The position numbers and the translations under genes are program-made. Of a stretch of 64,000 nucleotides of DNA, positions 12,796 through 14,066 are shown one piece after another; position 1 is the stretch's first letter, and the number at the start of each line of letters is the position of its first letter. The DNA lies in contig JBEVJN010000050.1 of NCBI GenBank assembly GCA_040510135.1, positions 33,461 to 97,460 on the forward strand. The letters run 5' to 3'. Source of the DNA: Acidimicrobiia bacterium (GTDB lineage: Bacteria; Actinomycetota; Acidimicrobiia; Spongiisociales; ZC4RG35). The notes below the pieces were generated by a model. That model was not told the DNA's origin. It made no database searches and saw only the letters and a list, made by a program, of their open reading frames with translations.

Positions 12796-13314
12796 ATGGA
12801 TGATCTGACTGCAGCCCTGGCCAGGGACCTGGACGGCGCCTTTTTCACGTTGGTGGAGAGCGCCGGCCCCGGCCTCTATTGGGGGTTGCGGCGGCTCTGC
12901 GGCGACCATCAGGAGGCCGAAGACCTCACCCAGGAGACCTTCATCCGCGCGTATCGGGCGCTCGGTGATTTCGACCGTGGGCGGTTCGAGGAGCTCAGAT
13001 TGTCGCCGTGGCTGTGGACCATCGCGCTCAACCTGGGACGGAACCATCTTCGCAATCGTTCGAGGCGGCCCACGTTGGTGGAGATGCATGCGAATCCGGC
13101 GGTCGACGACCCGGAACCCCCCGACCTGGCAGCCTGGGATACCCGGCTCTCGGCACTCCCGGTCAACCAACGGAGAGCGGTTGTCCTGCGGCACGTAGTC
13201 GGGCTGGGAATCGGGGAGATCGCTGACGCCACAGGGCGTCCCGAGGGGACGGTCAAGGCAGACATCCATCGTGGACTGGACCGGCTGAGACGAGTGATGG
13301 AGCAAGAACAATGA
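12796..13314 (+). CDS. ECF-type RNA polymerase sigma factor (sigma-70 family)
   Basis: Region 2 (EAEDLTQETFIRAYRAL, WLWTIALNLGRNHLR) and region 4 (RRAVVLRHVVGLGIGEIADATGRPEGTVKADIHRGLDRLR). Start taken at ATG 12796; the ORF opens at 12751. Confidence 0.88.
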   Translation: MDDLTAALARDLDGAFFTLVESAGPGLYWGLRRLCGDHQEAEDLTQETFIRAYRALGDFDRGRFEELRLSPWLWTIALNLGRNHLRNRSRRPTLVEMHANPAVDDPEPPDLAAWDTRLSALPVNQRRAVVLRHVVGLGIGEIADATGRPEGTVKADIHRGLDRLRRVMEQEQ

Positions 13315-14066
13315 ACATCGAGGACCAACTTTCGAGCCTGACGGGCAGCCTTCCTGAGGGCATCAGCGAAGGGATTGCGCTCGGCACCGGCCTGGCGGAT
13401 GGCTACGACCTCTACCCATCACCGCTAGGCGAGGTGGTCGTGACCTTCAACATCGAGGGAGTCTCATCCCTCGATCTGGCTAATGAAGGCTACGAGAGGC
13501 GATTCGCCGGCAGACACGGGCGCCGGCTGTTTCGGGCCGACCCCCCGGCCGACTGGGGCCGGCACATCCCTGAGGCGATGGAAGCAGGGACCCCGGGCCG
13601 GCTGCCGGTCGACCTCCGCTCGAGGACTCCGTTCCAGGCCCGTGTCCTCCGGATCGCCGCTTCGATCCCGCGGGGTGAGGTCCGGCCCTATGGCTGGCTG
13701 GCGCGGGAAGCCGAGAAGCCTGGCGCTTCCAGAGCGGTCGGTTCGACCATGGCCCGCAACCCCATCCCCCTCATCATCCCTTGTCACCGTGTGGTCCGAT
13801 CTGATGGTCATCTCGGTGAGTACTCCCTGGGCGGGCCTCACAACAAATGGGAGTTGCTCACGCATGAGGGGGTGGAGCCGGCACGTCTCGTCGAGCTGGC
13901 CGAGCACCATGTCCGGGTCCAGGGCAATCCCACAACAGGCGTCTATTGCCATCCCACCTGTCACGTCATCCGGGCATCGGGGCAGTGGAACATTGTCGAC
14001 TTCGCGTCGACCGCCGTTGCTCGATCGACCGGTTTCCAGCCGTGCGAGGTTTGCCGGCCCGGTTAG
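13311..14066 (+). CDS. O6-alkylguanine-DNA alkyltransferase (Ogt/MGMT) fused to a C-terminal Ada-type Cys4 zinc domain
   Basis: ATGA overlap with the sigma gene. MGMT core [30 protein letters not shown] with the acceptor Cys. The C-terminus [18 protein letters not shown] mirrors the E. coli Ada N-domain GIFCRPSC..GFRPCKRCQP. Confidence 0.85.
   Translation: [251 protein letters not shown]

What the first reader, a model, noticed from the sequence alone, without database searches (positions are those of the whole stretch)
12796..14066. ECF sigma factor translationally coupled to an Ogt alkyltransferase carrying a C-terminal Ada-type zinc domain: possible alkylation-sensing sigma module
Seen: the ECF gene's TGA overlaps the ATG of the next gene (ATGA at 13311-13314). 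That is the slot normally held by an anti-sigma factor.

The 251-aa product is not a recognisable anti-sigma. Residues ~105-190 are a complete O6-alkylguanine alkyltransferase domain ([34 protein letters not shown], acceptor Cys158 intact). The last ~45 residues are [41 protein letters not shown] (Cys213/217/245/248). They match, almost position for position, the Cys4 zinc site of the E. coli Ada N-domain (GIFCRPSCRARHALRENVSFYANASEALAAGFRPCKRCQP). That site is the methyl-phosphotriester acceptor that switches Ada into an activator.

Domain order is inverted relative to Ada, and the AraC-type HTH is absent.

Inference: the missing DNA-binding output may be supplied by the coupled ECF sigma, so that irreversible Cys methylation would release or activate the sigma. 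Methylated Ada is known to contact sigma-70, which makes a sigma-directed output plausible. I know of no described ECF group controlled this way.
Basis: partly seen in the sequence, partly recalled or inferred. Interest (0 to 1): 0.75.

Follow-up and report, generated by a model that had tools for sequence, protein, structure and literature searches.

The report
Alkyltransferase-type anti-sigma partner of ECF sigma
A small sigma factor gene overlaps a gene for a DNA-alkylation repair protein that descends from an anti-sigma factor family, so alkylation damage probably switches on the sigma directly; the pairing is catalogued in the literature but nobody has tested it.

Summary
An ECF sigma gene (12796-13314) overlaps by ATGA a 251-aa protein (13311-14066) with a complete O6-alkylguanine alkyltransferase fold and a C-terminal Ada-type Cys4 zinc domain.

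The pairing is not chance. In 78 of 78 assessable related loci, from Acidimicrobiia to Chloroflexota and Dormibacterota, the same sigma lies directly upstream, and 73 of 79 pairs share the 4-nt overlap. A conserved ECF-type promoter (TGCAAC-N16-GKGTTC) ends 9-11 nt before the sigma ATG in most loci, implying an autoregulated, leaderless operon.

The decisive new evidence is a sister family of about 300 aa. It has the same MGMT+Ada-Zn core behind a canonical zinc-binding class I anti-sigma domain and also overlaps an ECF sigma (6 of 6 loci). The window protein equals that protein minus helices 1-3. It keeps the segment that aligns with helix 4, the sigma2-binding helix. MGMT+Zn proteins lacking this N-terminal piece are not next to sigmas (0 of 4).

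Best reading: an anti-sigma-type partner consumed by alkyl transfer, which frees the sigma. Binding and the signal are inferred, not shown. The sigma-MGMT association is already catalogued as group ECF122, mechanism unknown.

The parts
12760..12788 (+). Conserved ECF-type promoter of the operon. The -35 is TGCAAC (12760-12765), followed by a 16-nt spacer and a -10-like GTGTTC (12782-12787). The motif ends 9 nt before the sigma ATG, so the transcript is predicted to be leaderless or nearly so.
   Evidence: GCAAC-N17-19-GTT is present within 150 nt upstream of the sigma in 74 of 75 loci, with N18 spacing in 71, and it ends 9-11 nt before the ATG in 60. The background is 0.25% of random windows and 0 of 496 upstream regions of other genes. 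The window site scores 25.9 bits on the PWM, and the next best site in the 64 kb scores 10.1. It is the only pattern match in the window.
12796..13314 (+). ECF (group 4) sigma factor of 172 aa, with sigma2 and sigma4 domains only.
   Evidence: Pfam gives Sigma70_r2 at 3.5e-16 and Sigma70_r4_2 at 1e-12. NCBIfam gives sigma70-ECF TIGR02937 at 64.2 bits, above its 42.9 cut-off; the best subfamily, SigE-fam_strep, is below its cut-off. Orthologues lie upstream of the MGMT-Zn gene in 78 of 78 assessable loci.
13311..13314 (+). ATGA overlap of the sigma stop codon and the partner's start codon (translational coupling is inferred).
   Evidence: Read directly from the sequence. The exact -4 overlap is present in 73 of 79 pairs. 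The others are -11, -20, -20, -29 and +1, plus one frameshifted copy.
13311..14066 (+). 251-aa partner protein: N-extension + MGMT (Ogt/Ada-C type) + Ada-type Cys4 zinc domain. Proposed to be an anti-sigma-type regulator and suicide alkyl acceptor.
13311..13391 (+). Residues 1-27, the family-specific N-terminal extension. Residues ~16-26 ([11 protein letters not shown]) align with helix 4 of the class I anti-sigma domain of the long-form sister family.
   Evidence: hhalign aligns short form 6-251 to long form 50-295 (probability 100, E 1e-75). The long-form AF2 model has H60-70 after a lower-confidence linker. The window model has H20-26 and low pLDDT over residues 1-19. The extension tracks sigma adjacency: 78 of 78 loci with it, against 0 of 4 without it.
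13392..13880 (+). Residues 28-190, the complete O6-alkylguanine-DNA alkyltransferase fold (N-domain plus C-domain with the HTH). The acceptor Cys158 codon is at 13782-13784 (PCHR).
   Evidence: 1sfe aligns over residues 28-187 at 1.4e-16 and PF01035 hits at 5.7e-29. Y127, R141, N150, C158, H159 and E186 are 100% conserved in 77 homologues.
13920..14060 (+). Residues 204-250, the Ada-type Cys4 zinc domain. The Cys213 codon is at 13947-13949, and the other ligands are Cys217, Cys245 and Cys248.
   Evidence: PF02805 hits at 2.4e-10, above its gathering score, and N-Ada residues 32-74 align. All four Cys are present in all 71 homologues that have the domain. The domain is absent in 6 loci.

Best explanation
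The two genes form a self-contained, autoregulated sigma/anti-sigma-type module.

Shown: the operon is preceded by a conserved ECF-type promoter, and both genes are conserved as an overlapping pair. The 251-aa protein is a catalytically intact O6-alkylguanine alkyltransferase with an Ada-type zinc site. It is homologous over its whole length to a protein family that carries a canonical zinc-binding class I anti-sigma domain at the N-terminus and is also coupled to an ECF sigma.

Inferred: the sigma reads that promoter itself. The pair is made in roughly 1:1 amounts through the ATGA overlap, and the partner holds the sigma inactive. It would do this mainly through its N-terminal segment, which aligns with anti-sigma helix 4, the helix that in class I anti-sigmas covers sigma2 regions 2.1/2.2 and blocks binding to RNA polymerase core. 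When DNA carries alkyl lesions, the protein irreversibly transfers the alkyl group to Cys158 (from O6-alkylguanine) and, where the zinc domain is present, to Cys213 (from methylphosphotriesters). The alkylated, spent protein changes conformation or is degraded and no longer holds the sigma. Free sigma then re-induces the operon, replacing the consumed suicide enzyme, together with unlinked regulon genes. Sigma release would thus scale with lesion load.
For: Linkage: the sigma is directly upstream on the same strand in 78 of 78 assessable loci spanning Acidimicrobiia, Chloroflexota/Limnocylindrales, Dormibacterota and others at 41-89% identity. The 4-nt overlap is present in 73 of 79 pairs. No other neighbour is shared across phyla.

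Autoregulation: the promoter motif is in 74 of 75 loci, against a 0.25% background and 0 of 496 other genes.

Anti-sigma ancestry: the long-form homologues P0132, P0137 and P0155 have zf-HC2 above Pfam's cut-off. C4, H30, C34 and C37 are invariant in them. Their N-terminal profile hits RsiW at 3.4e-6, DdvA at 8.8e-4, RslA at 9.9e-4, and ChrR and RsrA more weakly. The AF2 model (pLDDT 91) shows a four-helix domain followed by MGMT and the zinc domain. Foldseek finds MGMT, N-Ada, RslA and RskA. In 6 of 6 long-form loci an ECF sigma overlaps or abuts upstream. Short form 6-251 equals long form 50-295. The promoters are related (CGAAC-N16-GTGTT).

Specificity of the N-terminal add-on: MGMT+Zn proteins that start directly at the MGMT fold are next to a sigma in 0 of 4 loci.

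Alkylation link: all catalytic and DNA-binding residues are invariant. In L086 the operon is sigma, long anti-sigma, a second MGMT-Zn, and an HhH-GPD glycosylase.

The role of helix 4 is taken from PMC7406223.
Against: There is no direct evidence of sigma binding. The window protein lacks helices 1-3 and the ZAS motif, and a helix-4-only anti-sigma is unproven. Its N-terminus is modelled with low confidence. No second promoter site or alkylation-repair gene is visible in the 64-kb window or consistently in the loci, so the regulon is unknown. Six loci lack the zinc domain. The controls are few (n=4). All relatives are from metagenome-assembled genomes, and genes in L001-L080 were called with my own heuristics.
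Confidence: 0.6

Rival explanations
1. The 251-aa protein is only a repair enzyme co-transcribed with the sigma, a regulon member rather than a regulator. The sigma would be controlled elsewhere, for example purely at the level of transcription.
For: Full conservation of the catalytic residues shows selection for repair activity. Stand-alone MGMT+Zn proteins exist without any sigma. The window protein has no detectable anti-sigma domain by Pfam or NCBIfam. ECF122 is listed among groups 'without cognate anti-sigma'.
Against: A mere target gene would not be expected to keep a 4-nt overlap with the sigma in 73 of 79 pairs across phyla, nor a conserved N-extension that is absent from the unlinked MGMT+Zn proteins. 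Nor would it be homologous over its full length to a family with a canonical anti-sigma domain in the same genomic position.
Confidence: 0.17
2. The protein is a redox or electrophile sensor of the RsrA type. Oxidation or direct alkylation of the zinc thiolates, rather than repair of DNA lesions, would release the sigma, and the MGMT fold would serve mainly as a scaffold.
For: The long form has a complete ZAS site plus a Cys4 site. ZAS anti-sigmas such as RsrA sense thiol stress (established knowledge). The Ada-type thiolate is intrinsically nucleophilic.
Against: The window's short form has no ZAS motif. Six loci have no zinc domain at all yet keep the pairing. The DNA-binding and catalytic residues of MGMT (the positions matching the Arg finger, the Tyr, the Asn and the Glu-His-Cys network) are invariant in 77 of 77, which a scaffold would not need. 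L086 links the system to a second alkyltransferase and an HhH-GPD glycosylase.
Confidence: 0.1
3. The protein is a positive co-factor like Ada. Once alkylated, it would bind DNA or the sigma-RNAP holoenzyme and activate transcription rather than relieve inhibition.
For: The protein retains DNA-binding surfaces. Some anti-sigma-like partners are needed for sigma activity.
Against: Homology places it in an inhibitory class I anti-sigma family. The promoter has only the two sigma elements conserved, with a non-conserved spacer and upstream region, and no obvious third operator.
Confidence: 0.08

Closest known systems
ECF122 group of ECF sigma factors (Casas-Pastor et al. 2021 classification, as summarised in PMC8999054)
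   Same: An actinobacterial ECF sigma without a recognisable cognate anti-sigma, with 6-O-methylguanine DNA methyltransferases conserved in the neighbourhood. These were proposed as possibly regulatory, with the mechanism listed as unknown.
   Different: Membership of the window sigma could not be tested, because neither the group HMM nor the representative sequence was available. The accessible text does not mention the Ada-type zinc domain, the N-terminal extension, the promoter, or the ZAS-fused sister family.
Class I (ASDI), zinc-binding anti-sigma factors: RsiW/SigW, RslA/SigL, ChrR/SigE, RsrA/SigR
   Same: The sister long form has the four-helix domain with C...H-x3-C-x2-C, sits overlapping an ECF sigma, and hits RsiW, RslA, ChrR and RsrA by sequence and fold. 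The window pair has the same operon logic: the sigma comes first, the genes overlap, and the promoter is autoregulated.
   Different: The window protein lacks helices 1-3 and the zinc motif and keeps only the segment aligned with helix 4. The sensor or output part is a suicide DNA alkyltransferase plus an Ada zinc domain, not a membrane, cupin or redox module.
E. coli Ada (adaptive response regulator)
   Same: It has both kinds of alkyl-acceptor module: a Cys4-zinc site equivalent to Cys38/42/69/72 and a PCHR site equivalent to Cys321. Its expression is autoregulated.
   Different: The domain order is inverted and there is no AraC-type HTH. The first ~18 profile positions of the zinc domain are absent. 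The output is presumed to go through an ECF sigma rather than direct promoter binding.
Stand-alone MGMT+Ada_Zn proteins (no N-extension)
   Same: They have the same two-domain core, about 38-44% identical.
   Different: They start directly at the MGMT N-domain strand and are not adjacent to a sigma (0 of 4). One, in L086, is a downstream operon member rather than the coupled partner.

Membership tests
O6-alkylguanine-DNA alkyltransferase (MGMT/Ogt/Ada-C; PF01035) | Profile match above the curated threshold, covering both the N- and C-domains | tested here: met
   PF01035 scores 100.2 bits against a cut-off of 27. TIGR00589 scores 84.7 against 46.4. 1sfe aligns over residues 28-187.
O6-alkylguanine-DNA alkyltransferase (MGMT/Ogt/Ada-C; PF01035) | PCHR acceptor cysteine plus the catalytic and DNA-binding residues. 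By my knowledge of human AGT numbering these are Tyr114, Arg128, Asn137, Cys145, His146 and Glu172. | tested here: met
   Y127, R141, N150, C158, H159 and E186 are 100% conserved in 77 homologues.
O6-alkylguanine-DNA alkyltransferase (MGMT/Ogt/Ada-C; PF01035) | Stoichiometric alkyl transfer from DNA | not testable with these tools
   This needs a biochemical assay.
Ada N-terminal zinc domain (PF02805) | Four cysteine zinc ligands with Ada spacing, and a profile match above threshold | tested here: met
   PF02805 scores 40.7 bits against a cut-off of 23. The alignment to N-Ada residues 32-74 includes Cys38/42/69/72. All four Cys are present in all 71 homologues that have the domain.
Ada N-terminal zinc domain (PF02805) | Complete domain, including the N-terminal part (profile positions 1-18) | tested here: not met
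   The match covers profile positions 19-64 of 65 only. A helix at residues 190-199 precedes the match in the model.
Ada N-terminal zinc domain (PF02805) | Methylphosphotriester repair by the first cysteine | not testable with these tools
   This needs a biochemical assay.
Ada-type transcriptional regulator (E. coli Ada, B. subtilis AdaA) | AraC-type HTH DNA-binding domain following the zinc domain | tested here: not met
   No HTH_AraC or HTH_18 hit at E<=1. The NCBIfam Ada equivalog scores 90.6 bits against a cut-off of 345.
ECF (group 4) sigma factor | Sigma2 and sigma4 domains only, of small size | tested here: met
   172 aa, with Sigma70_r2 plus Sigma70_r4_2. TIGR02937 is above its cut-off.
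ECF122 | 6-O-methylguanine DNA methyltransferase conserved next to the sigma, with no recognisable anti-sigma | tested here: met
   78 of 78 loci. The definition is taken from PMC8999054.
ECF122 | Assignment by the group's own HMM, or phylogenetic placement with WP_057211282.1 | not testable with these tools
   The supplement is not held.
Class I anti-sigma factor (ASDI / zf-HC2) | N-terminal three-helix bundle, often with H-x3-C-x2-C | tested here: not met
   It is absent from the window protein. It is present in the long-form sister family.
Class I anti-sigma factor (ASDI / zf-HC2) | Fourth helix after a flexible linker (the sigma2-binding helix) | tested here: inconclusive
   Window residues ~16-26 align with long-form H60-70 and a short helix is predicted at 20-26. 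The function of this segment is not tested.
Class I anti-sigma factor (ASDI / zf-HC2) | Co-encoded with, and binds and inhibits, its ECF sigma | tested here: inconclusive
   Co-encoding is met.

The most novel reading that the evidence does not exclude
A widespread but uncharacterised bacterial adaptive response, found in Actinomycetota, Chloroflexota, Dormibacterota, Acidobacteriota and Gemmatimonadota. In it a suicide DNA alkyltransferase is itself the anti-sigma factor. Each repaired lesion would consume one inhibitor molecule and free one ECF sigma molecule, so DNA alkylation would be read directly and quantitatively by the transcription machinery, with no Ada-like DNA-binding activator. 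The window's version would work with a minimal, helix-4-only anti-sigma element.
Probability: 0.5. Interest if true: 0.85.

Novelty: new variant of a known kind. Interest (0 to 1): 0.72.

Why it matters
ECF sigma factors are normally described as sensors of envelope or redox stress. A cytoplasmic anti-sigma whose sensor is a DNA-repair suicide enzyme would be a new input class (DNA lesions) and a new switching logic (stoichiometric consumption). It would also explain how large groups of bacteria that lack an Ada-type AraC regulator induce alkylation repair, and it would give ECF122, an 'unknown mechanism' group, a testable mechanism.

The work here turns a catalogued gene association into concrete experiments. 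It supplies a defined promoter (TGCAAC-N16-GKGTTC), a candidate binding element (residues 1-27), two acceptor cysteines (158 and 213), and natural variants (with ZAS, without ZAS, without zinc domain) that dissect the mechanism.

Tried and rejected
1. Complex prediction.

2. Rosetta-stone search. A concatenated query found no natural sigma-MGMT fusion among the 120 best clusters. P0225 (437 aa) looked like a fusion, but its N-terminal 250 aa have no Pfam domain and are probably a mis-called ORF.

3. ECF122 primary description. The main text of Casas-Pastor et al. and its preprint do not mention it, the supplement is not held, and Huang et al. 2015 is not held.

4. Organism names for distant relatives. 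Two cluster look-ups gave only metagenome sources.

5. Regulon. PWM and pattern scans of the window and of 723 kb of loci found no consistent second target.

6. Neighbours as functional clues. They are lineage-specific and unrelated: transketolase and an MFS-like protein in Acidimicrobiia; EamA, a SAM methyltransferase, a GMC oxidoreductase, an acyl-CoA dehydrogenase and a GNAT in Chloroflexota. The acyl-CoA dehydrogenase is a normal 405-aa enzyme and nothing identifies it as AidB.

7. The divergent 232-aa membrane protein as the real anti-sigma. It is present in only 14 loci and absent outside Acidimicrobiia, so I rejected it.

8. Palindrome after the stop codon as a terminator. It folds no better than shuffled sequence (z = 0.33), and no canonical terminator or sigma70 promoter was found.

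9. First gene caller. It lost the MGMT ORF in half of the loci and was redone.
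Full report
OBSERVATION. The window holds an ECF sigma gene (ATG 12796 to TGA 13314, 172 aa) whose stop overlaps, as ATGA at 13311-13314, the start of a 251-aa ORF (13311-14066). Pfam gives Sigma70_r2 (3.5e-16) and Sigma70_r4_2 (1e-12) for the first protein. For the second it gives DNA_binding_1/MGMT at residues 107-188 (5.7e-29) and Ada_Zn_binding at residues 204-250 (2.4e-10), both above their gathering scores. NCBIfam agrees and finds no full Ada equivalog and no AraC HTH. Against solved structures, residues 28-187 align with the whole E. coli Ada-C fold (1sfe, 1.4e-16). Residues 207-250 align with N-Ada residues 32-74, the stretch that carries the four zinc cysteines. 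Residues 1-27 match nothing known.

IS THE PAIRING REAL? A scan of one genome per species returned 80 loci encoding full-length relatives (41-89% identity). They come from Acidimicrobiia, Chloroflexota/Limnocylindrales, Ktedonobacterales, Dormibacterota and a few others, and at least 599 genomes held some relative. An orthologue of the sigma lies immediately upstream on the same strand in 78 loci. The two exceptions have no upstream DNA in the contig. After correcting start codons, 73 of 79 pairs share the exact 4-nt overlap. The rest overlap by 11-29 nt or are 1 nt apart, and one is a frameshifted copy. Clustering all neighbouring ORFs shows that only these two genes are shared across phyla. 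Everything else is lineage-specific synteny with no link to alkylation repair.

PROMOTER. Upstream of the sigma there is a conserved two-box motif, TGCAAC(C)-N16-G(G/T)GTTC. GCAAC-N17-19-GTT occurs within 150 nt of the start in 74 of 75 loci, with identical spacing in 71. It ends 9-11 nt before the ATG in 60 loci. The same pattern occurs in 0.25% of random windows of these loci and upstream of 0 of 496 other called genes. The spacer itself is not conserved. This is the layout of an ECF-type promoter that drives a leaderless or near-leaderless, autoregulated operon. That the sigma itself reads it is an inference. In the window the site is 12760-12788 (25.9 bits), and nothing else in the 64 kb exceeds 10.1 bits. 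The loci gave no consistent second target, so the wider regulon is unknown.

THE PARTNER IS A REAL ALKYLTRANSFERASE. Across 77 homologues the residues Y127, R141, N150, C158, H159 and E186 are 100% conserved. By my knowledge of human AGT these correspond to Tyr114, Arg128, Asn137, Cys145, His146 and Glu172. The four zinc cysteines are present in all 71 homologues that have the domain. Six Acidimicrobiia loci (L020-22, L030-32) encode 191-201-aa proteins that end just after the MGMT fold yet keep the sigma pairing and the overlap. The zinc domain is therefore an accessory, not the constant element.

THE KEY LINK: A SISTER FAMILY WITH A CANONICAL ANTI-SIGMA DOMAIN. An exhaustive profile search found 308 clusters (at 50% identity) with E<=1e-30. 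Many representatives are about 300 aa, with 55-100 extra N-terminal residues. Three of those tested (P0132, P0137, P0155) hit Pfam zf-HC2, the zinc-binding anti-sigma motif, above its gathering score, followed by MGMT and Ada_Zn_binding. A search with P0132 returned 120 clusters of 289-316 aa (plus one 244-aa fragment) from Acidobacteriota, Gemmatimonadota and Chloroflexota, about half of them with a precomputed zf-HC2 hit. In an alignment of 32 of them, C4, H30, C34 and C37 (a full C...H-x3-C-x2-C site), the PCHR cysteine and the four Ada-type cysteines are all invariant.

A profile of their first 74 residues hits solved anti-sigma factors: RsiW (3.4e-6, aligned over residues 1-68), DdvA, RslA, ChrR and RsrA. 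The AF2 model is confident (mean pLDDT 91.1). It shows helices at 4-16, 21-33 and 35-54, a lower-confidence linker, helix 60-70, then the MGMT fold and the zinc domain. Foldseek recovers MGMT (1sfe, TM 0.81), the N-Ada/DNA complex, and the anti-sigmas RslA and RskA. In 6 of 6 loci examined, the long-form gene overlaps or abuts an upstream ECF sigma gene. Those sigmas are 28-43% identical to the short-form sigmas. Three of them carry CGAAC-N16-GTGTT(C) upstream, close to the short-form motif.

HOW THE WINDOW PROTEIN RELATES TO IT. Profile-profile alignment puts short form 6-251 on long form 50-295 (probability 100%, E 1e-75, 40% identity). The window protein is thus the same protein without helices 1-3. 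It keeps the linker and the segment that forms helix 60-70 in the long form, which corresponds to window residues ~16-26 ([11 protein letters not shown]). The window model also places a helix at 20-26, with low confidence before it (mean pLDDT only 70.9).

In class I anti-sigma domains, helices 1-3 bind sigma4. After a flexible linker, helix 4 binds sigma2 regions 2.1/2.2, the surface that contacts the beta-prime clamp helices. Twelve of the 14 strongest coevolving contacts involve helix 4 (PMC7406223). As a control, MGMT+Ada-Zn proteins that begin directly at the MGMT N-domain strand are not next to a sigma in 4 of 4 informative loci. Their upstream neighbours are a DAO oxidoreductase, an unrelated ORF, a chaperonin and a Y-family polymerase. 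The second MGMT-Zn gene of L086 likewise lacks the extension and is not the coupled gene. Sigma coupling therefore tracks the N-terminal add-on, not the repair core.

MECHANISM (inferred). The pair is made together. The partner holds the sigma through the retained helix-4-like segment, possibly helped by the MGMT N-domain it is fused to. Irreversible alkyl transfer to Cys158, and to Cys213 where the zinc domain is present, inactivates or destabilises the partner. Destabilisation of alkylated MGMT is established for the human protein (my knowledge, not tested here). Freed sigma re-induces the operon and replaces the spent enzyme. A link to alkylation repair beyond the protein itself is seen in L086, where the operon continues with a second MGMT-Zn and an HhH-GPD glycosylase. 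Binding, the direction of control and the signal are not shown. I put about 0.75 on 'regulatory sigma partner of anti-sigma type' and about 0.55 on 'alkyl transfer is the signal', which gives 0.6 for the combined statement.

RIVALS. (a) The protein is a mere co-transcribed repair enzyme. (b) It is an RsrA-like redox or electrophile sensor. (c) It is an Ada-like positive co-factor. The evidence for and against each is listed in the rival section. The invariant DNA-repair residues, the variants without ZAS or without the zinc domain, and the anti-sigma homology argue against (b), (a) and (c) respectively.

COMPARISON WITH WHAT IS KNOWN. A 2022 review, citing the 2021 ECF reclassification, lists ECF122 (representative from Cellulomonas sp. 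Root930) under 'unknown mechanism'. It describes the group as having 6-O-methylguanine DNA methyltransferases conserved nearby that might be regulatory. I could not test whether the window sigma belongs to ECF122. Full-text searches found no paper describing an MGMT-containing anti-sigma factor, the ZAS-MGMT-Ada-Zn architecture, or a mechanism. The library is incomplete, so this is absence of evidence only. I rate it a new variant of a known kind: a sigma/anti-sigma pair with an unprecedented sensor, in a minimal helix-4-only form.

CAVEATS. All relatives are from metagenome-assembled genomes. Gene starts in L001-L080 come from my own heuristics. The 80 loci are the best matches to an alignment that includes the N-extension, so '78 of 78' describes this family, not all MGMT+Zn proteins. 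The no-extension control has n=4. The helix-4 equivalence rests on one profile alignment and two AF2 models, one of which is mediocre.

Noticed in passing
L033-L080 (Chloroflexota, Limnocylindrales and Dormibacterota homologues), C-termini: After the final C-x2-C-R-P, 42 of 47 of these short forms carry a 4-9-residue Ala-rich tail ending in [AVLSI]A (for example VAAAA, VSLAA), and 32 end in AA. This resembles ssrA/ClpX C-terminal degrons. Of 117 close relatives of the window protein, none has it; of 117 long forms, 21 do. It may point to regulated proteolysis in those lineages.
   Followed up: partly
L020, L021, L022, L030, L031, L032: These Acidimicrobiia variants of the partner (191-201 aa) lack the Ada-type zinc domain altogether but keep the sigma, the 4-nt overlap and the promoter.
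   Followed up: partly
L086:3442-6671 (Chloroflexota MAG GCA_046154735.1): A four-gene operon: ECF sigma, ZAS-MGMT-AdaZn anti-sigma, a second MGMT-AdaZn (244 aa, no N-extension) and an HhH-GPD glycosylase (312 aa). It is the only locus seen with further repair genes attached. The glycosylase was not classified further.
   Followed up: partly
L034, L035, L037, L045, L050, L051, L053, L055, about 265 nt inside the sigma ORF: A promoter-like site (CGCAACCGG-N-G(T/G)GTTC(C), 16.5-22.8 bits) lies on the coding strand inside the sigma gene of one Chloroflexota subclade. It could be a coding coincidence (an R-N-R...R-V motif) or an internal promoter for the partner gene.
   Followed up: no
window 12043-12741 (-): A divergently transcribed 232-aa multi-pass membrane protein with no Pfam or NCBIfam hit. 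Its start codon is only 55 nt from the sigma ATG, so the two promoters must overlap. It is conserved at this position in 14 Acidimicrobiia loci only, and a conserved TA(A/G)GTACGGT lies between the genes.
   Followed up: partly
L001 and L006 (the same MAG, MFD00962.bin.2.52, labelled Acidobacteriota): Two contigs of one bin each carry the module at 88-89% identity to the window. The L006 copy of the partner gene is frameshifted. This could be a paralogue, a strain mixture or an assembly error. The bin's taxonomic label disagrees with the Acidimicrobiia labels of all the other close relatives.
   Followed up: no
window 18035-19030 (-): A second ECF-like sigma (331 aa) with a long C-terminal extension clustered with the sigma family in my neighbour analysis. 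It is unrelated to the module and was not analysed.
   Followed up: no
window 11228-12031 (+): A 267-aa protein with a class III adenylate/guanylate cyclase domain (1.5e-10) preceded by an N-terminal segment with two C-x2-C pairs, possibly a zinc-ribbon-regulated cyclase.
   Followed up: no
L083/L084:5053-6472: Endonuclease V and PhyH-family dioxygenase genes lie just downstream, on the opposite strand, of one long-form sigma/anti-sigma pair. This may be coincidental.
   Followed up: no
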